From Naegleria gruberi (lineage: Eukaryota), in the NCBI GenBank assembly GCA_000004985.1, contig GG738917.1: a stretch of DNA of 64,000 nt; one strand, 5' to 3'. Both the position numbers and the translations under genes were made by a program. The first letter of the stretch is position 1. Each line of letters begins with the position of its first letter. Below are positions 16,893-37,387 of the stretch, piece after piece. Below the pieces are notes generated by a model, which was not told the DNA's origin, did no database searches, and worked only from the letters and a program-made list of their open reading frames with translations.

Positions 16893-17098
16893 TAATTATT
16901 TTACAATCAACTGTCAATAAATAAGATTTTCAATTTAACATTAATTAAAAAAAAGATCCGATCTATTTGATTAGCAATTATTCGTTGGTGTGAATGAAAT
17001 ACGCGAATGCCGATAAAGCGCGGATTTACATGTCGGGCATAAAATCCGACAAGTCCTCTCTTCATCGTCTCCATTGAAATTTTCAACAACAAAAAAAC

Positions 17099-18850
17099 AT
17101 GCCAAAAACCTCATCTCGTCAATCAGGAAAATCCCACCCCAATGACTGCAACGCAGAGCTGAGTCCCATTGCTTGCAAGGCCTGCAAAAAAGCACATAAA
17201 AAAGTAAGTAATCCATTGCCATTATTATTATTGAAACATGCAACTTTTAAAGTGTGTAAGTATTCATCATCATCTCATCATCGGAATTAATATACTGAAT
17301 AATAGGATAGGAAAATGGGGAAATGCTCCCGATGTTCAAAGAAAAATCTTGAATGTCATTATGATACAGTGGATAGGAGAAGAAGATCTGAAAATCAACA
17401 AATTCAAACCGATGCAAATAGTAGTGGAAATGACAGTTCAAATCAATCACTTTCGGAATATTCCGATGATCATCAGCTTATCAAACACTCTGTGAATGGT
17501 AAAACCATTGAAGTTTACATTTACGTTACCAGTATGGGAATTCCTTGTTTTAAACCTGAAGAATATTACAAATTGTTACAATGCAATATGGAAGAATTAA
17601 ATAAGAATCGAAGAGATCAACTAGCTCTATTACTTTCTATCCAAACTATTTGTGAACAGATATTTGGATTCCCTGATTTGGCTGAACAAACTGCCAGAAA
17701 ATGTAAAAAGGTTGTCATGCATTTGTATGATGATTTTTCAAATCCATTTGTGGCTTGCACTTTTTTGAATATGGCCACATATTATTCAGCTGAAGGAGAT
17801 ATTGAGATGGCCAGAGGTTACATTGCTTTGGTGGAAAATTTTATTGATAGAATGAAACTGACCTCACAATTATTCGAATATGAACTAATTCCTAAATTTA
17901 ACATTGAATTTTGCATAACTTCAATGAAAATTGTTACTCCCATAACGTCTTTGGCATGCTGTGATTCCTATCCAATACCTGACGTTCCAATTCTCACGAA
18001 AATCTTTGGACTCCTCTCATCAATGCACGTTTTTCATCCAAGTTATGAAATTGAATTTTGGAATAATAATTTGAGTCCTACCATTGAGAATAGAATTAAT
18101 AATTTGGAGATTTTCTCAGTCCTTGCCGCCATATATGAGAACAAGTTGACAGATGTTTCAAAGAAATTAATGGAAGTCACCAAGGAAGTCTTCTTCAATG
18201 GATTGAATATTATACGACTGATATTGCATGCCAGTAAGATTGATAATTCTAAATTGTACGCAAATACTAGATTATTGGAATTCTATGCATTGAAAGTGAG
18301 CAAATTATCAGAGAATAATCTCTTCATTTACATGACTCCATATGTCATGTCATTTGTTCTGTCATCCATTAAGGTAAACTTTGAAGTTTGTAAAATGATT
18401 GATCGAGGAGAAAGAGTAAATTTACAGACCACACTCGTATTGAATAATGAAATGTTTGAAAATTCGACTGAAGTTGTGGATTACTATTCAGTGCTGAATA
18501 GAGATTTGGAAACACTCAAACAACTTTCAAAGAGATACAGATATATCACCACTATTTATAATGAAGTGAATACATTCTTGAATAATAGAGCTAACATGTG
18601 TCAATCGAACATTCAGTTGGATGGGTTGACTTCCTCTCCTGGAAGTTTGAGTTCACTATTTGATCCACCTTCTAACATTTACTCAGAGATGAGGAATTTC
18701 TTATCAACCTTTGGAAAATCCAGGAATTTACTCAAAACAACAGATCAAGAAAAACCAATTTGTGACAGAATTACTACTGAGGAAGAGTTTTGTAATTATT
18801 TTGGATTTGAACCAGCAATGGATGATCAATTTCCACCAAACAATAGATAA
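17099..18850 (+). CDS. Protein with an N-terminal Cys-rich Zn2Cys6-like (fungal-type binuclear cluster-like) motif and a large C-terminal domain of unknown function. Two exons: 17099-17203, 17306-18850.
   Basis: Exon 1 ends ...CKACKKAHKK with a GTAAGT donor at 17204. Acceptor aatag at 17305. Exon 2 continues in frame DRKMGKCSRCSKKNLECHY (C-x2-C...C-x2-C-x6-C-H). The exact Cys spacing is non-canonical. Confidence 0.55.
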
Positions 18851-18955
18851 ACATCATAATATTAATTGTGTTTTTCTATCAATTTAATTGAATTTCCAGA
18901 AGTACTAGAATTACATTTGAGTGAAGCAACAATAAAATAAAAAGTAATTTCTGAA

Positions 18956-19287
18956 TGCGTCGACCGGGAATTGAACTTCCTTTTTAGGAATATTATATTT
19001 AATATTTAAATAGTTTACAATATTGAATAATGAAACAACGTGTAAATGTGTTTAAGTAGGGTACCCGTGAGTCGATTCACCATATTTGGAAGGTACTATT
19101 CAACAACAACAACAACAATAAATGTATTTAATATTAATTATTTGATACCGGGAGTCGCTTTTCCTTTTTGGGAATGTTGTATGTGAGTTATCAACTGGTC
19201 TACGCATTTAAATTTTTTTAAAAAATAAAAAAAAATGAAATTGGGTAACGGGAGACGGTTTACTATATATGGAACATTCAAACATAC
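18956..19287 (-). repeat. Segment holding the tRNA-Gly 3' end (T-loop/acceptor 3'/discriminator, 18956-18976, minus) followed by an array of four degenerate ~30-35 bp units resembling tRNA 3' ends or B-boxes (about 18957, 19059, 19145, 19244).
   Basis: The minus strand of 18956-18976 reads GTTCAATTCCCGGTCGACGCA, i.e. tRNA positions 53-73. The units share CCGGGA..(10)..TTCC..TTTTTGGGAA on the plus strand. Their reverse complements resemble GGAA..TTCAATTCCCGGT. Confidence 0.55.
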
Positions 19288-19345
19288 AATTGAACCCGGG
19301 TCACGGCGATGGCAACGCCGTATTCTACCACTAAACCATCGACGC
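19288..19345 (-). tRNA. Truncated tRNA-Gly(GCC), positions 1-60 only (A-box, anticodon arm, T-stem 5' half and T-loop). The 3' T-stem and acceptor are missing at this site.
   Basis: Minus strand: GCGTCGA TG GTTTAGTGGTAGAATAC GGCGTTGCCATCGCC GTGAC CCGGG TTCAATT, then unrelated sequence. The anticodon loop TTGCCAT gives anticodon GCC. The matching 3' end lies 311 bp downstream (18956-18976) with an 8-nt overlap GTTCAATT. Confidence 0.6.
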
Positions 19346-19443
19346 TTCTTATTAAGGTTCTAAGGCTCTATCATTTCACACAACCAGAAACCTGATACTC
19401 CAAAAGTTTATTACAGCTGATCGTTCAATGACTCATTACCACC

Positions 19444-20632
19444 TTATTGCAAACTCTTTCCACCAACACATTGGAATCCTAACTTGACACATCTAGGACA
19501 AGGTTTTTCATCAGTACAGAAAACGTGAGCTTTTCTACATTGATCACAGGGTGACTTAACTTGATTTCTTCTCTTTTTCTTCGTTACTTCTCCCTTATCA
19601 TTGCTACCGTTCATTATAACCGTGACGTGTTTTCCTGTAATCAAGTTTGTAAACTTGATTGGCATTCCGTTTGGAATAAAGTTGAATAAATCACAATCTC
19701 TTTTAAGAAATTTCTTATCTTCCTTATTCTCAATCATTGCAGGATTCAAATTGTATATCATGGCTTCATAAAGCTTTGGGGAAATGATATCTCTCTTAGA
19801 AACCAAAAGTGGATGGGAATCAACTGTCGCCAAGACCTCTCCTTCAATAATTGGGAATCTGATTTCACTCAAGAAATAGTCCAAATATTGCAATCTATTT
19901 TCCTTATCGTGCTCAATCCATCTCATCAAGGACTTGAATAAATTTCCTTCACTACCTATTAATTTGAGTTCCTCTCCAGCAAGCATGACCTTCAAGTCTT
20001 CAATTGATAATTTAACAAAATGTTCACTTTCACAAACAGCATCAAAATTAGCAGAAATCTTAGTAAGAAGAGTTTTCTTTAAAGAGTTGATTTCCTTAAA
20101 TTCTTCCAGATATTGTGAGCAATTTTCCAAAAGAAGGAATGAATCACCAACAGCAGCACTTCTCATAATTTTAAGAGCCCTACCCTCAATTTCTTGCATT
20201 CCATAGGTATGAGCAAAAGTGTACAGATCCATAAATTTATCCACTGCATAATCCTTTGTGGAACCAAAATAGACAACCTTTAAGAAAATTTCCAATCCTA
20301 AATCGGTCACCTGATCCAATACAAGCTCCATGCCAATCTTGAATTCTGGAATAAAAAGAAGTTCCTTCAGTTTTGTACTCCATTTTCCGACCTATGATGA
20401 ATCATCATGATGTTCGGATCATCACACAATTTAAATATTTGATTTTACAATAACACACACATACCATGGCTCTAAGAGCTGGAAATTTCTTTCCATTCTG
20501 ACTGATCAATACACAATCAGAAACTTCTTCATCCAAATACAAGGATGAAATCATGGACATGGTTTTTTCTGTACATTCAATGTAGTTGTTGGAACGGGTT
20601 ATGGAATTACCTAATGTGGAAATTGAATTCAA
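19444..20632 (-). CDS. BTB/BACK-domain protein with a C-terminal Zn2Cys6-like cysteine cluster. Two exons: 20465-20632 and 19444-20391.
   Basis: Exon 1 encodes ...DCVLISQNGKKFPALRAM (BTB N-terminus) with a GTATGT donor. Acceptor catag at 20392. Exon 2 in frame: VGKWSTKLKELLF...MELVLDQ... The C-terminus reads CDQCRKAHVFCTDEKPCPRCVKLGFQC, which is C-x2-C-x6-C-x5-C-x2-C-x6-C. Confidence 0.6.
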
Positions 20633-20889
20633 TTTTGAAATTGAATATAAGTGGATTGTTTCAATAAATTTTCAAAATTGAAATTGAGATTATTTACAAT
20701 ATTTTATTGAATATTGATGAAATTAAATAAATAGAATATTTCACATAGTTTCTTGTTAGAAAAGATAGTCAATTGAACTTAAGATTTATTACATATCAAC
20801 CAGACACTCAATCACCATCAAAGAAAACAAAGAAGAATAACGTTATTGATAGTGATACTGAAGATTTCGATTGTAATATTAAAGATATT

Positions 20890-21200
20890 GATAATTGGGT
20901 ATAGGGAAACGGAATTTCCTAATGGGGAAAGTCACACAATAAATTAAATTATTTATTCATTAATGATGATGTTCACAAACTTTGAATTAACACATTATGT
21001 ACATGATGAAACAATTCAAACTTTAAACATTGAACTTTAACCATCGGGTAACGGATTTTAATACATGTACTAGTATGTTGACAATTTGATAATTTGTCGA
21101 CGCACATAAATTTAAATAAACAAAATTAACAAGATTTTAAACAAAATCCTACATAGAGTTGGAGAACGGGAAATGAAATTCCCAAATTGAAATTTAGAAA
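20890..21200 (-). repeat. Second array of degenerate tRNA-3'-end/B-box-like ~30-35 bp units (about 20896, 21043, 21154), adjacent to the second tRNA-Gly fragment.
   Basis: gggtatagggaaacggaatttcctaatggggaaag, cgggtaacggattttaatacatg and ggagaacgggaaatgaaattcccaaattg resemble the units at 18957-19277 (for example gggtaacgggagacggtttactatatatggaac). Confidence 0.45.
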
Positions 21201-21238
21201 CAACTATTCATTTCACAATAATTCATACTATCAAAATG

Positions 21239-21296
21239 AATTGAACCCGGGTCACGGCGATGGCAACGCCGTATTCTACCACTAAACCATCGACGC
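21239..21296 (-). tRNA. Second copy of the truncated tRNA-Gly(GCC) positions 1-60. It is identical to 19288-19345 and shares 13 bp of 5' flank (CCTTAATAAGAAG on the minus strand).
   Basis: Plus-strand aattgaacccgggtcacggcgatggcaacgccgtattctaccactaaaccatcgacgc is identical to the copy at 19288-19345. Both are truncated after TTCAATT. The flanks diverge beyond the shared cttcttattaagg. Confidence 0.6.
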
Positions 21297-22037
21297 TTCT
21301 TATTAAGGTAATAAGGCACCATATTTTAATAAAGAAGAACCCCAAAAGTGTTTTTATGCTTTAATAACAATTTGAATGATTCATGAATACCTGCGGTGGG
21401 AGGTAACATTGGCGTGGCTACCTCAACAACTAAAAAAAGCGCCATAATCACCTACAAGTTGGAGGTACCCTCAGATTGACATGGCTCTTAAATTTGTGAT
21501 AATGGTTTCGAGTAATTCTTACTCCAATAGTTCACATCATCCAAAAACTAATACTAGTAATTTTTAATACCATCATTTCCTTATTGAAACATCATCCTAT
21601 CATTCACCAACAAATTGAAGTGCATTCTTCATTCTTTTCTTACTCAATGGCCAACAAAACGATGGCTAATTGTTCAGTTTCCAACAACACACAATTGAAT
21701 GACCATAAAGAAACCTCAAGCTAATACTTTCCTTTTTCAATTCATATTCCCATCATCATACAAAATGATGAAATATCACATGAAATATTCAGTGAAAGAA
21801 GTAATCGTTAGACACAAATATTCAATTTAGAAAGGAGATGATTCACATCAAAAGAAATTACCATTCCTCATATGAATGCATTTGGAAATAATGTAAACCA
21901 CAACGGTTTTAAATCAAGCCACAACAGCAACTGATGGAAGACATGTCCACTCAATTCTTCTAGACATACAAAAAGTTCATCCACATAACAACAACACCTG
22001 ACATCCACCAACTGACACATTTCAATAATACACAAGG

Positions 22038-25000
22038 TTGTTCTTGTTGTATTTTAAAGACACACCAAGACGGGTTAACAACTTCAAAAAAAAACAAAAA
22101 TACAAGATGGTTACAAAGGCAAATATTTCAATTGTTGTCATCGTTGTGATGATGGCCATGTTGGTGTACATGGTTAATGGAGCACCATTAAATACATACT
22201 CTGTCAAGATTAGTACATTTGCAGGTGGTAATGGTGAATTCAAAGATCCACAAAAGCTTGCTAGATTATCAAATGGTGATATTTTGGTCAGTGATGCTTT
22301 AGGTCATGCCATTAAGAAGATTAACGTGACCAGTGGTGTGATTACTACAATTGCTGGTAATGGTACTGCTGGTTTTGGAGGGGATAATGGTCCAGCTGTC
22401 AATGCTCTAGTCAACAAACCATTTGGTATTGCAGTTTCTCAAACAGATGAGATTTACTTTGCTGATTCTGGAAATAATAGAATTAGAAAAATTGATTTGA
22501 CTGGTACAATTACAACAGTGGTTGGTACAGGAGATGCTACACCTTTCATTGATGGTGATTTGGCCACCAATTGTACCATTAACACTCCAATGGATGTTTC
22601 ATTGAGTACTTCAGGTGAATTATACATTGCTGATATGTACAATTACAGAATTAGAAAAGTTTTGACTAATGGTACCATTGTTACATTTGCTGGAAGTGGT
22701 CAATCAGGTCATACAGGTGATGGTGGTTTGGCAACCAATGCTGCCATGGCTCTTGCTTATGGTGTAAAAGTTTTTTCAAATGGAGAAGTTTACATTTCCG
22801 ATAGTTTCAATTTCAAAGTGAGAAAGGTTGATGTTAATGGAACTATTACAACTGTAGCTGGTTCTGGTGTTGCTCCTTATAGTGGTGATAACATTTTGGC
22901 TACTGCTGCCAATTTGAATTATCCAAGTGATGTTTTTCGTTTTGATACAGGTGAATTGGTCATTGCTGATACAAACAATAATAGAATTAGACTTGTAATG
23001 CCAAATGGTACAATTATTACAACTGCTGGTAATGGTACTGCTTCATTCTCTGATGGTGAATTTGCTGAAGAGAATGGATTATCTCTTCCAACTGGTTTGG
23101 TACTTATTCAAAATGGATTGTTGATTGCTGATGCTGGTAATAAGAGAATTAGATTGTTACAACGTACAATTTTCTCATGCTATGGAAAGTCAACACTCGA
23201 TTCCAATGTTTGCAGTGGTCAAGGAAGATGTGTTGGTAATAATATATGTCAATGTAATGCTGGTTTTGAAGGACCAACTTGTCTTCCATCCAAGTATTAT
23301 ATTACAACTGTTGCAACTGATTTTAAGGATCCACAAAAGATTGCCAAATTGTCAAATGGTGATATTATCGTTTCTGATACAGGTGATCACTCTATTAAGA
23401 AGATTAGTTACTCAACTGGTGTTATTTCAAGAATTGCTGGTACTGGTGTTGCAGGTTTTTCAGGTGATGGTGGTTTGGCTTCCCAAGCTCAACTCAATAA
23501 GCCATACGGTATTGCAATTACTGCTAATGATGAAATTTACATTGCTGACAATTTAAATCATAGAATTAGATTTGTTGATGTGAATGGCAATATTTCAACT
23601 GTTGCTGGTACTTCAATTGGTTTCTCTGGTGATAGTGGTTTGGCAACAGCTGCTAAATTAAATGCTCCAATGGATGTTTCATTGAGCGCTTCAGGTGATT
23701 TATATATTGCTGATAGAGATAATTATAGAATTAGAAGAGTTAGCAGTGGAGTTATTTCTACCTTTGCTGGTAATGGTCAATCTGGTTATTCTGGTGATGG
23801 TGGTCAAGCTACAAGTGCAGCCTTATCTCAAGCTTATGGTGTTAAGGTTATTAATGGCGAAGTTTACATTTCAGATAGTAACAATTACAAAGTTAGAAAG
23901 GTTGATGGAAGTGGAATTATTACAACTATTGCTGGTTCTGGAGCTGCTCCTTTCAATGGTGATGGATTGATGGCAACTTCTTCGAATATGAACCATCCAA
24001 CTGATGTTGCACTTCTACCAAGTGGTGAAATGATAATTGCGGACACTGATAACTATAGAATTAGAATGGTTCTTTTGAATGGTACAATGGTCACTATTGC
24101 AGGTAATGGTAATTATGTTTCAAGTGGTGATTATGGCCTTGCTACATCTGCTGGTTTGAAACTCCCAACCGGTATTTTAATTACTCAAGATGGTATCATG
24201 TTCACTGAAACAAGTAGTGTTGGAAGTAATGGAGGCGGTAAAGTTAGATTATTATCAACAGTTTATGTTCCTCCATTGTGTAATGGTATGTCTGCAAGTG
24301 ATCCTTATGTTTGTAACGGAAGAGGATCATGCATTGGTAAAGATTTGTGTCAATGTAATGCAGGATTCAATGGAACCTTCTGTGCAAATTCTCAATGTGT
24401 TAAACCATCTGCTGATATCACAATTCCATGTTTTGGAAATGGTAATTGTTCAAATGATGTTTGTACATGTGCTCCTGGTTTCTATGGACCTTACTGTTCA
24501 ATCTCAGTTATGATTAGCTCTAGAGGATATACTCATCCAATTATGGGTATTTTCATGATGGCTACAGTTAATTCATTGACCCTTGATGGTATTTCAAATG
24601 TTGATTACAGTTGGTCTCAAATTTCTGGTCCAACCATTTCAAACTTGGCAACCATGACCAATTTGAAAACTCCAACATTTATCATTCCAGGAAAATTCAA
24701 TTCTCTTTCATTCGATAACGGTCTTGTTTCTGGTAATACATATGGTTTTGCATTGACTGCCAAGATTACAACTGGTGCCTACACAACAACTGTCACAACC
24801 TCAACCACTGTTCTAGTTCAACAAAATCCAGCATTGACTTTCACATTAAAAGATGACAGTACCAATCAAGCTATTACTTCAGGTGTTGCTGGTACAACTG
24901 TTTTCAGAATTAACATTACAAGTAACTCAAATCCATACTCTGACTCTAGCTTCAAATACGGATTTGGTTTTGCAGATTCTAATAGTATTACAATTCTCAC

Positions 25001-37290: not shown

Positions 37291-37387
37291 CCCAGTGTGG
37301 TCTAATGTTAAGATAGATGACTTTGTGATGAGGTATAATCTACCTTGTTAAATTCATCAGATCCAGGTGCAAGTCCTGGCATTGGGT
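37291..37387 (+). tRNA. tRNA-like element with a 26-nt insert in the anticodon loop: either an intron-containing tRNA (anticodon UUG, Gln, if the canonical 37/38 intron position applies) or a tRNA-derived pseudogene.
   Basis: Cloverleaf: acceptor CCCAGTG/CATTGGG (one G-T pair). D-stem GTCT/AGAT. Anticodon stem GATGA/TCATC separated by 33 nt. Variable loop AGAT. T-stem CCAGG/CCTGG with loop TGCAAGT. Non-canonical points: no GG in the D-loop, G at position 55, and T at position 37. Confidence 0.35.

What the first reader, a model, noticed from the sequence alone, without database searches (positions are those of the whole stretch)
18956..19345. tRNA-Gly(GCC) gene split in its T-loop by a ~311-bp insertion with an 8-bp direct duplication
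On the minus strand, 19345->19288 encodes tRNA-Gly(GCC) positions 1-60 perfectly and ends exactly after the T-loop (…CCGGGTTCAATT). The remainder (GTTCAATT CCCGG TCGACGC A, positions 53-73) lies 311 bp away at 18976->18956. The two pieces share the 8 nt GTTCAATT, as a target-site duplication would. The intervening 311 bp is itself made of four degenerate ~30-35 bp tRNA-3'-end/B-box-like units spaced about 90-100 bp apart. This looks like a site-specific insertion into a tRNA gene, or a recombination product of a tRNA-derived short repeat family, rather than an intact tRNA. Dictyostelid retroelements are known to target the surroundings of tRNA genes, but insertion inside the gene body at the B-box is atypical.
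Basis: seen in the sequence. Interest (0 to 1): 0.65.

Follow-up and report, generated by a model that had tools for sequence, protein, structure and literature searches.

The report
Recent insertion splitting a Naegleria tRNA-Gly gene
A glycine tRNA gene of the amoeba Naegleria gruberi has been cut in two by a recent 311-bp piece of non-coding DNA flanked by an 8-bp duplication; a nearly identical strain still has the gene intact, so this is a dead gene copy and not a new kind of tRNA intron.

Summary
On the minus strand, 19345->19288 is the first 58 nt of tRNA-Gly(GCC). 18976->18956 is the last 21 nt. 311 nt lie between them, and GTTCAATT flanks that stretch on both sides. Joined, the two pieces form a perfect cloverleaf. 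Covariance models find no intact tRNA here.

The window is Naegleria gruberi, not a dictyostelid. The decisive result is metagenome contig L006. It is 98.9% identical to the window across this locus and carries the same gene uninterrupted, with the same upstream flank. It lacks exactly 319 nt (311 + 8), so this is a recent insertion/deletion difference between strains.

It is not an intron. No splice register gives a bulge-helix-bulge motif, the boundaries fit no group I or spliceosomal intron, the fold is ordinary (z = 0.12), and a T9 run would stop RNA polymerase III 52 nt into the insert.

The insert has no terminal inverted repeats, no ORF and no other copy in the 64 kb. It holds three degenerate copies of its own right-hand junction with the tRNA T-arm.

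A second perfect 58-nt 5' piece lies 1.95 kb away (21296->21239). It breaks at the same nucleotide and is followed by distantly related DNA, but has no 3' piece. That suggests a T-loop-specific element, which I could not prove without the rest of the genome.

The parts
19288..19345 (-). 5' piece of tRNA-Gly(GCC): acceptor 5' strand, D-arm, anticodon arm, variable loop, T-stem 5' strand and T-loop (tRNA positions 1-60). It contains the A box and most of the B box.
   Evidence: (exact, 0/100 shuffles); identical to intact genes on L002 and L006
19288..19295 (-). Left copy of the 8-bp direct duplication GTTCAATT (the target-site duplication).
   Evidence: present once in the empty site of L006
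18977..19287 (-). 311-bp inserted DNA. It is 28% G+C and has no ORF, no terminal inverted repeats and no unusual RNA fold. It is absent from the orthologous locus of a 98.9%-identical strain.
   Evidence: (319 nt = 311 + 8 unaligned)
18969..18976 (-). Right copy of the 8-bp duplication GTTCAATT.
18956..18976 (-). 3' piece of the tRNA: T-loop, T-stem 3' strand, acceptor 3' strand and discriminator A.
   Evidence: (only match within 3 mismatches in 64 kb)
18939..18943 (-). Native T5 run 13 nt after the tRNA 3' end. This is the original Pol III terminator of the gene.
   Evidence: the intact gene on L002 has a T5 run at a comparable distance
19220..19235 (-). T9-A-T6 inside the insert, starting 52 nt after the break. 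It would terminate Pol III before the 3' piece is reached.
   Evidence: sequence; role inferred from the established rule that Pol III terminates at T runs
19230..19274 (-). Internal unit a (TTCC-N6-..-TCTCCCGTTACCCAA). It is T-arm/3'-end-like, matching the canonical 3' piece at 8/21 positions.
19130..19174 (-). Internal unit b (TTCCCAAAAAGGAA-AAGCGAC-TCCCGGT). It copies the insert's own 3' end plus the adjoining T-stem 3' strand.
   Evidence: (family D3, 78% over 36 nt)
19046..19091 (-). Internal unit c (TTCCAAATATGGTGAATCGACTCACGGGTACCC), similar to unit a.
   Evidence: (4/300 shuffles)
18946..18990 (-). Unit d: the present right-hand junction. It is the insert's 3' end TTCCTAAAAAGGAA followed by the tRNA 3' piece.
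19197..19208 (-). Inverted copy (11/12) of the tRNA 3' end plus 2 nt of trailer. AATGCGTAGACC here is the reverse complement of GGTCGACGCATT at 18965-18954.
   Evidence: pair I7
19346..19357 (-). 12-nt upstream element CCTTAATAAGAA, identical at both tRNA-Gly loci of the window and in L006. L002 shares only the final AAGAA.
   Evidence: (family D1)
21239..21296 (-). Second, identical 58-nt tRNA-Gly 5' piece, broken after the same GTTCAATT. ARAGORN miscalls it as a tRNA; Rfam scores it 21.2 bits, below the 29-bit threshold.
20779..21238 (-). DNA following the second 5' piece (27% G+C). It holds T-arm-like units at 21192 and 20929 and TGCGTCGAC near 21100, and is weakly similar to the 311-bp insert.
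   Evidence: (6/300)
20771..20778 (-). A second GTTCAATT 460 nt after the second break. It is not followed by tRNA sequence. It may be a right-hand duplication, or chance (about 3-5%).

Best explanation
A once-functional nuclear tRNA-Gly(GCC) gene of Naegleria gruberi was recently interrupted in its T-loop (B box) by 311 bp of AT-rich, non-coding DNA. The event duplicated 8 bp of target, GTTCAATT.

The interrupted copy is dead as a tRNA gene. The 5' piece keeps its upstream element, its A box and most of its B box. RNA polymerase III would probably still start there. It would then stop at a T9 run 52 nt into the insert and never reach the 3' piece. This step is inferred, not shown. Intact paralogues presumably supply the tRNA.

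The event is young. A strain that differs by only 1.1% at this locus still has the uninterrupted gene. That is why both pieces are still letter-perfect.

The inserted DNA has a history with this kind of target. It contains three decayed copies of 'its own 3' end plus the adjoining T-arm'. A distantly related sequence sits behind a second tRNA-Gly 5' piece, broken at the same nucleotide, 1.95 kb away.

My preferred mechanism is integration of a small non-autonomous element that prefers the tRNA-Gly T-loop. It would use a staggered 8-bp cut, supplied in trans by an enzyme I could not identify. This mechanism is inferred. Copying the insert from another already-split tRNA-Gly paralogue by ectopic recombination would leave the same footprint.
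For: - Empty site. L006 aligns to window 20585->18952 at 1286/1300 = 98.9% identity. It skips exactly window 19295-18977 (319 nt) and reads straight through an intact tRNA-Gly with the same upstream flank.
- Both pieces are 100% canonical: 71/71 identical to the genes on L002 and L006.
- The direct repeat is exactly 8 bp.
- There is no intact tRNA by Rfam or ARAGORN.
- It is not an intron. No BHB motif appears in any of the 9 possible registers. No Rfam intron family hits 17000-23000. The fold z-score is 0.12. T9 and T6 runs lie inside the insert.
- A second locus has the same breakpoint. The upstream flanks of the two loci are paralogous at about 79% identity.
- Internal junction-like units exist. 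TCCCGGT sits at the same offset from the repeated 22-mer in unit b as in the real junction.
Against: - No second copy of the 311 bp exists in the 64 kb. I could not reach the rest of the genome, so mobility is not shown.
- The insert has no terminal inverted repeats, no A-rich tail and no ORF. It fits no transposon class.
- The two inserts share only marginal similarity (6/300 shuffles). Their sequences immediately after the break differ.
- The second locus has no 3' piece, which a simple insertion does not explain.
- The direction of the event is inferred by parsimony and from the duplication. A precise loss in the L006 lineage is not excluded.
- L006 ends 8 nt past the tRNA, so its 3' flank is confirmed for only 4-7 nt.
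Confidence: 0.68

Rival explanations
1. The split is old. An ancestral tRNA-Gly gene acquired the T-loop insert before the local duplication that produced the two loci. The insert then grew by tandem duplication and decayed. The tRNA pieces were kept perfect by gene conversion from intact paralogues. In the L006 lineage one such conversion, or slippage between the 8-bp repeats, removed the insert and restored the gene.
For: - Both loci break at the same nucleotide.
- Unit a of copy 1 and unit 1 of copy 2 share changes relative to the canonical 3' piece: G65T, A69C, G71A and C72A (my reading).
- The motif order is roughly collinear in the two bodies: unit, T-rich stretch, TGCGT(A/C)GAC, unit, unit.
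- There are 0/70 differences across the upstream 12-mer plus 5' piece, against 11/53 in the next stretch of flank (p = 5e-5). That pattern resembles a conversion tract.
Against: - It needs an extra, precise restoration event within about 1% divergence.
- A 21-nt 3' piece with no homology on its left can hardly be patched by conversion without deleting the insert. Staying 21/21 through 10-20% neutral divergence has roughly 1-11% probability (my estimate).
- The upstream flanks are about 79% identical, but the DNA just after the break is unalignable. Equal age would not predict that.
Confidence: 0.17
2. The insert is not a mobile element. A break in the T-loop of this highly transcribed Pol III gene was repaired by templated, microhomology-mediated synthesis or by ectopic recombination. 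The repair copied about 311 bp from the surroundings of another tRNA-Gly paralogue. The 8-bp repeat is the microhomology or the filled-in stagger.
For: - The insert contains tRNA-Gly 3'-end-like and T-arm-like fragments in both orientations.
- It has none of the structural hallmarks of a transposon class.
Against: - The same breakpoint occurs at a second locus.
- The insert is not significantly similar to the local 3' flank (288/500 shuffles).
- An exact 8-bp duplication is more typical of an enzymatic staggered cut.
Confidence: 0.1
3. It is a functional split gene. The 311 nt are a non-canonical T-loop intron, as in Cyanidioschyzon or Archaea, or the two pieces are joined in trans to give mature tRNA-Gly.
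For: - Both pieces are perfect and join into a perfect cloverleaf.
- Positions 59/60 are a known intron site in Archaea (my own knowledge).
Against: - No BHB motif appears in any register. The best central helix has three G-U pairs and no outer helices.
- T9 and T6 Pol III terminators lie inside the insert.
- The fold is not unusual (z = 0.12).
- A near-identical strain lacks the insert.
- The second locus has no 3' piece.
- The other tRNA of the window carries an ordinary 26-nt anticodon-loop intron.
Confidence: 0.03
4. It is an assembly artefact, either in the reference (a false insertion) or in the metagenome contig (a false intact gene built from reads of paralogues).
For: - tRNA genes are repeated.
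- L006 ends 8 nt after the tRNA.
Against: - The insertion has clean boundaries with an exact 8-bp duplication.
- L006 is a k=127 contig. Its last 127-mer spans 48 nt of locus-specific upstream flank, the whole 71-nt tRNA and 8 nt of trailer. So single reads link the unique flank to the intact T-arm.
Confidence: 0.02

Closest known systems
Dada DNA transposons (Kojima & Jurka 2013, PMC3706591; 2022, PMC8869645)
   Same: They insert at one fixed site inside multicopy tRNA and snRNA genes, including tRNA-Gly in Perkinsus and medaka. They make short target duplications that can look like 8 bp. They have no terminal inverted repeats and carry subterminal repeats that also occur in the target gene. 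They have internally deleted derivatives, tandem insertions, and copies with the target on one side only. They are tolerated because the target is multicopy.
   Different: Dada duplications are 6-7 bp. Most tRNA-targeting lineages insert at nucleotides 8-13 (A box), and others at a different site such as GCGTTCA in tRNA-Leu; none is reported in the T-loop. Full elements are kilobases long and encode a DDE transposase. No transposase was found or searchable here, and Dada is not reported from Heterolobosea in the two papers read.
tRNA-gene-targeted retrotransposons of Dictyostelium (TRE5/TRE3, DGLT-A) and yeast Ty3
   Same: They are mobile elements guided by Pol III genes or the Pol III machinery (my own knowledge).
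   Different: They integrate upstream or downstream of the gene and leave it intact. They are retroelements with coding capacity or recognisable ends. Here the insert is inside the gene at the B box and has no retroelement features. The organism is not a dictyostelid.
Non-canonical BHB introns and split or permuted tRNA genes (Archaea, Cyanidioschyzon merolae, nucleomorphs)
   Same: The gene body is interrupted outside the anticodon loop, and T-loop positions are used (my own knowledge).
   Different: Those introns are bounded by a bulge-helix-bulge motif, are mostly under 100 nt, and are fixed functional features. Here there is no BHB, there are internal terminators, and the insert is a strain polymorphism.
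Prokaryotic integrative elements using tRNA T-loops as attachment sites for tyrosine recombinases
   Same: The 7-nt loop flanked by inverted stem halves serves as the crossover site, and the result is a short direct repeat at both ends (my own knowledge, Williams 2002).
   Different: Those elements carry the tRNA 3' part and so regenerate an intact gene, and they encode an integrase. Here the gene is destroyed and no recombinase is known. N. gruberi has only degenerate DIRS1-like tyrosine-recombinase relics on record (PMC3266345).
MITEs of the hAT, P, Merlin or Novosib superfamilies (8-bp duplications)
   Same: They are small (about 300 bp), AT-rich and non-coding, and make an 8-bp target duplication.
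   Different: The defining terminal inverted repeats are absent. No other copy lies in 64 kb.

Membership tests
Intact tRNA gene (Rfam RF00005) | Covariance-model score at or above the gathering threshold (29 bits); complete cloverleaf | tested here: not met
   The split copy scores 18.8 bits and the second copy 21.2 bits. ARAGORN finds nothing at 18900-19400. The joined pieces alone form a perfect tRNA.
BHB-type (archaeal / C. merolae) tRNA intron | Two 3-nt bulges separated by a 4-bp helix at the two splice sites | tested here: not met
   All 9 registers allowed by the 8-nt repeat were examined. The best central helix is GGUU/AGUU (three G-U pairs) with 1 and 3 of 4 outer pairs.
BHB-type tRNA intron | The precursor is transcribed through the intron | tested here: not met
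   T9 and T6 runs at 19235-19220 begin 52 nt into the insert. Termination at these runs is inferred from the general Pol III rule and was not measured in Naegleria.
Group I / group II / spliceosomal intron | Conserved core fold or boundary nucleotides (U before the 5' splice site and G at the intron end; GUGYG..AY; GU..AG) | tested here: not met
   No Rfam intron family hits 17000-23000 at E <= 10. The fold z-score is 0.12. No register gives the required boundary pairs (sequence).
Transposable-element insertion (generic) | Filled site versus empty site at orthologous loci, with a target-site duplication | tested here: met
   L006 has the empty site at 98.9% flank identity. The window has 311 bp plus a duplicated GTTCAATT.
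Transposable-element insertion (generic) | Multiple dispersed copies of the element | tested here: inconclusive
   The window holds only one distantly related sequence, behind the second tRNA-Gly piece. The rest of the N. gruberi genome could not be reached. The tRNA 26-mer gave one metagenome hit and none in prokaryotic genomes or viral contigs.
Dada superfamily | Insertion at a fixed site inside a multicopy small-RNA gene | tested here: inconclusive
   Two loci break at the same nucleotide of tRNA-Gly(GCC). Two cases are too few to establish a fixed site.
Dada superfamily | 6-7 bp duplication; tRNA targets mostly at nucleotides 8-13 | tested here: not met
   The duplication is 8 bp and lies at positions 53-60 in the T-loop. 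Dada values are from PMC3706591 and PMC8869645.
Dada superfamily | Dada DDE transposase in autonomous copies | not testable with these tools
   The insert has no ORF.
MITE (hAT/P/Merlin-like) | Terminal inverted repeats | tested here: not met
   No inverted repeat involves the two ends of 18977-19287.
tRNA-derived SINE | Own tRNA-like head with A and B boxes at the element's 5' end, plus an A-rich or simple-repeat tail | tested here: not met
   The tRNA head belongs to the host gene, since L006 has it without the insert. The insert starts GTATGTTTG and ends ..TAAAAAGGAA.

The most novel reading that the evidence does not exclude
Naegleria gruberi harbours a previously undescribed, recently active family of small elements. 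They integrate specifically into the T-loop (B box) of tRNA-Gly(GCC) genes, make an 8-bp duplication and lack terminal inverted repeats. At each hop they carry along part of the previous target's T-arm. This would be a new target site and possibly a new mechanism for gene-specific integration in a deep-branching eukaryote.
Probability: 0.33. Interest if true: 0.65.

Novelty: new variant of a known kind. Interest (0 to 1): 0.45.

Why it matters
Elements that home in on one position of a multicopy RNA gene are rare. They are of interest as natural examples of safe, sequence-specific integration. Those known inside tRNA genes (Dada) use the A box or the anticodon arm. A T-loop/B-box-specific element in a heterolobosean would add a new target and a new lineage. 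The filled/empty polymorphism would mean the element has been active recently and could be studied in culture.

If it is only a one-off repair product, it is an ordinary tRNA pseudogene. Either way there are two practical lessons. The split is not a new class of eukaryotic tRNA intron. And ARAGORN's 'tRNA-Gly' call at 21226-21297 is a false positive.

Tried and rejected
- Intron readings were rejected. BHB was tested in all 9 registers. Group I, group II and spliceosomal boundaries, Rfam at E <= 10 and the fold z-score all argue against an intron.
- The idea that the insert is an array of whole degenerate tRNA-Gly genes failed. tRNA against the insert scores 18 against a null of 15.7 (101/500 shuffles).
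- The idea that the insert is a tandem duplication of the local 3' flank failed. Flank against insert is not significant (288/500).
- Helitron insertion (5'-TC..CTRR-3' between A and T) was rejected on reading the ends.
- An LTR-retrotransposon primer-binding site was considered for the inverted tRNA 3'-end copy. The TGG expected from a CCA end is absent.
- Looking up window ORFs in the contig index failed. N. gruberi is not on record there.
- Synteny with N. fowleri and N. lovaniensis gave nothing. The flanking genes have no detectable orthologues. The two 21-kb loci I did fetch contain no tRNA.
- Prokaryotic genome and viral contig scans for the tRNA 26-mer gave 0 hits.
- Literature searches for Naegleria tRNA introns, split tRNAs or tRNA-targeting elements found nothing relevant.
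- Contig L007 does not reach the tRNA.

Full report
**Observation.**
- 19345->19288 is the first 58 nt of a tRNA-Gly(GCC) and ends ...CCCGGGTTCAATT.
- 18976->18956 is GTTCAATTCCCGGTCGACGCA.
- 311 nt (19287-18977) lie between them.
- The shared GTTCAATT is exactly 8 nt, because the neighbouring bases differ on both sides.

Both pieces are unique beyond chance, with 0 of 100 shuffles matching either. Joined, they give a perfect 71-nt cloverleaf (ARAGORN). No intact tRNA is detected at the locus. Rfam's tRNA model gives 18.8 bits against a gathering score of 29, and ARAGORN finds nothing.

**Organism.** The window is not dictyostelid DNA. The ORF at 17315-18850 is 100% identical to a Naegleria gruberi predicted protein on a 223-kb scaffold. 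The gene between the two tRNA-Gly loci is NAEGRDRAFT_74708.

**A second locus.** The same 58 nt occur again at 21296->21239. They are again followed by non-tRNA DNA immediately after GGTTCAATT.
- ARAGORN's 'tRNA-Gly' call at 21226-21297 is this truncated copy, with a non-pairing T-stem and acceptor. Rfam scores it 21.2 bits.
- No 3' piece for it exists anywhere in the 64 kb, within 3 mismatches for the 21-mer or 2 for the 12-mer.
- The 12 nt upstream (CCTTAATAAGAA) are identical at the two loci. The next ~55 nt are about 79% identical with indels. So the two genes are old local paralogues.

**The decisive comparison.** The C-terminal exon of the BTB-BACK-Zn2Cys6 gene (19444-20331, minus strand; Pfam) has a 99%-identical partial homologue on an ENA metagenome contig. 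I fetched that contig as L006 (1322 nt).
- L006 aligns to window 20585->18952 at 1286/1300 = 98.9% identity.
- It reads ...CCTTAATAAGAA-GCGTCGATGG...CCCGGGTTCAATTCCCGGTCGACGCA-TTCA.., which is an uninterrupted tRNA-Gly(GCC).
- The alignment skips exactly window 19295-18977. That is 319 nt, the 311-nt insert plus one copy of GTTCAATT.
- L006 is a k=127 contig. Its terminal 127-mer covers 48 nt of locus-specific upstream flank, the whole tRNA and 8 nt of trailer. So the intact gene is physically linked to this locus and was not borrowed from a paralogue.

The split is therefore a filled-site/empty-site difference between strains that are about 1% diverged, with an exact 8-bp duplication. This explains simply why both tRNA pieces are still perfect: the event is young.

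A second intact gene with the identical 71 nt sits on JGI contig L002. That contig comes from a more distant Naegleria-like organism. Its ORF is 43% identical to N. fowleri and N. lovaniensis proteins. The gene there is preceded by ..AAGAA and followed by a T5 run.

**Why it is not an intron.**
- The 8-nt repeat allows nine splice registers. None gives a bulge-helix-bulge motif.
- None gives group I (U...G), group II or GU..AG boundaries.
- Rfam at E <= 10 finds no intron or ribozyme family in 17000-23000.
- The 311 nt fold no better than shuffled sequence (z = 0.12).
- A T9 run followed by a T6 run (19235-19220) begins 52 nt into the insert. By the general rule for RNA polymerase III, transcription from the tRNA's internal promoter would end there, about 260 nt before the 3' piece.
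- The gene's own terminator (T5 at 18943-18939) still follows the 3' piece.
- The only other tRNA of the window (37291-37387) has a conventional 26-nt anticodon-loop intron.

The likely present-day product is a chimeric RNA of about 110 nt with no acceptor 3' strand. This is inferred and has no evident function.

**Anatomy of the insert.** It is 28% G+C and has no ORF. It has no terminal inverted repeats and no A-rich tail. It contains a (CAA)6 microsatellite. No other copy lies in the 64 kb; only low-complexity matches appear.
- It contains three ~35-45-nt units, starting at 19274 (a), 19174 (b) and 19091 (c). These align almost without gaps with the present right-hand junction (unit d, 18990) and with two units behind the second locus (21192, 20929). 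Mean column identity is 69%, and the consensus is TTCCAAATAnGGAAATTCGATTCCCGGTACCCAA.
- Units b and d are the clearest pair. The 22-mer ATAYAAYATTCCYAAAAAGGAA matches at 19/22, and 8 nt further on both have TCCCGGT. In unit d the 22-mer is the insert's 3' end, and TCCCGGT is the tRNA's T-stem 3' strand. So the insert holds decayed copies of 'its own end plus the adjoining target'.
- It also holds an inverted 11/12 copy of the tRNA 3' end plus 2 nt of trailer (19208-19197). The body of the second locus has TGCGTCGAC at a comparable place.
- The other similarities are marginal. Unit a against c gives 4/300 shuffles, and body 1 against body 2 gives 6/300.
- Two ideas failed their tests. The insert is not an array of whole tRNA pseudogenes (101/500). 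It is not a duplication of the local 3' flank (288/500).

**Mechanism.** Three things are shown: a recent 311-bp gain or loss with an 8-bp duplication, inside the B box, which destroys the gene. The rest is inferred.

An exact 8-bp duplication with an empty site elsewhere is the classical footprint of an integration at a staggered cut. The second locus breaks at the same nucleotide, and the insert carries internalised junction copies. Both point to a sequence with a standing association with tRNA-Gly T-arms. That would be a small non-autonomous, target-preferring element mobilised in trans. Ectopic recombination from another already-split paralogue would give the same result.

I put about 0.68 on the core reading, a recent disruptive insertion. 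I put about one third on the stronger claim of a T-loop-specific mobile family. The main rival (about 0.17) is an old split that was duplicated locally, kept perfect on the 5' side by gene conversion, and precisely reverted in the L006 lineage. The shared derived changes in unit a and unit 1 favour it, as does the 70-nt identical tract between the two loci (0/70 against 11/53 differences, p = 5e-5). It needs an extra precise event on a very short branch, and it leaves the perfect 21-nt 3' piece to luck. A one-off templated repair product (about 0.1), a functional intron (about 0.03) and an assembly artefact (about 0.02) follow.

**Unexplained.** The second locus has a perfect 5' piece but no 3' piece. 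A second GTTCAATT lies 460 nt downstream (20778-20771). I estimate that at about 3-5% by chance. It is followed by unrelated sequence. One-sided flanks of this kind are described for Dada elements, but I cannot say that is what happened here.

**Comparison with known systems.** The closest functional analogue is the Dada superfamily. These are DNA transposons without terminal inverted repeats that insert at fixed sites inside multicopy tRNA and snRNA genes, including tRNA-Gly. They carry subterminal repeats that also occur in the target, and they show tandem and one-sided insertions (PMC3706591, PMC8869645). Membership is not supported. Dada makes 6-7-bp duplications and mostly targets nucleotides 8-13 in tRNA genes, and I could not test for a transposase.

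The other candidates each fail at least one defining feature. This applies to MITEs with 8-bp duplications, tRNA-derived SINEs, the Dictyostelium and yeast tRNA-targeted retroelements, BHB introns, and prokaryotic T-loop integrases (see the membership table). I found no paper describing split tRNA genes or tRNA-gene-specific elements in Naegleria.

**Verdict.** It is a dead tRNA gene copy created by a recent insertion and not a new intron type. It is moderately interesting as a possible first sighting of a T-loop-specific element in Heterolobosea. A BLAST of the insert against the full N. gruberi genome would settle that in minutes.

Noticed in passing
window 21226-21297 (-): ARAGORN reports a tRNA-Gly(gcc) here. 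It is the truncated second copy, whose T-stem and acceptor 3' strands do not pair. Rfam gives 21.2 bits against a threshold of 29. This is a false-positive gene call.
   Followed up: yes
window 37291-37387 (+): A tRNA gene with a 26-nt intron in the anticodon loop (Rfam 46.7 bits). The isotype is ambiguous: ARAGORN says Leu(taa) with an odd intron position, while my reading is Gln(TTG).
   Followed up: partly
window 19444-20331 and 20405-20632 (-): The gene NAEGRDRAFT_74708 appears to combine a BTB-like start (read from the exon 1 translation, no Pfam hit), a BACK domain and a C-terminal fungal-type Zn2Cys6 DNA-binding cluster. This is an unusual domain combination. The gene is flanked on both sides by the two broken tRNA-Gly genes.
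   Followed up: partly
window 17315-18850 (+): A 511-aa protein with a Cys-rich N-terminus resembling a Zn2Cys6 cluster and no Pfam hit. Its only homologue among 5.8 billion proteins is 32% identical and comes from the same metagenome sample (ERZ929261) that yielded L006.
   Followed up: partly
window 20977-21024: A 24-nt-arm palindrome with no spacer (75% complementary) inside the DNA behind the second tRNA-Gly piece. It gives a spurious mir-753 hit in Rfam.
   Followed up: no
window 20771-20778 (-): A second GTTCAATT lies 460 nt after the break of the second locus, on the same strand. It is followed by GACTATC rather than the tRNA T-stem. It may be a right-hand duplication of a one-sided insertion, or chance (about 3-5%).
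   Followed up: partly
L002 47-119 and 207-277: tRNA-Ile(AAT) and an intact tRNA-Gly(GCC) lie 88 nt apart on a JGI metagenome contig from a Naegleria-like organism. The tRNA-Gly is 71/71 identical to the N. gruberi sequence.
   Followed up: yes
L006 1166-1174 versus window 19416/19415: There is a 9-nt indel in the intergenic spacer between the BTB gene's stop codon and the tRNA. There are also a 13-nt and a 2-nt indel elsewhere in the alignment (around window 20400-20412 and 20061/20062, near or within the intron region). These are ordinary strain differences.
   Followed up: no
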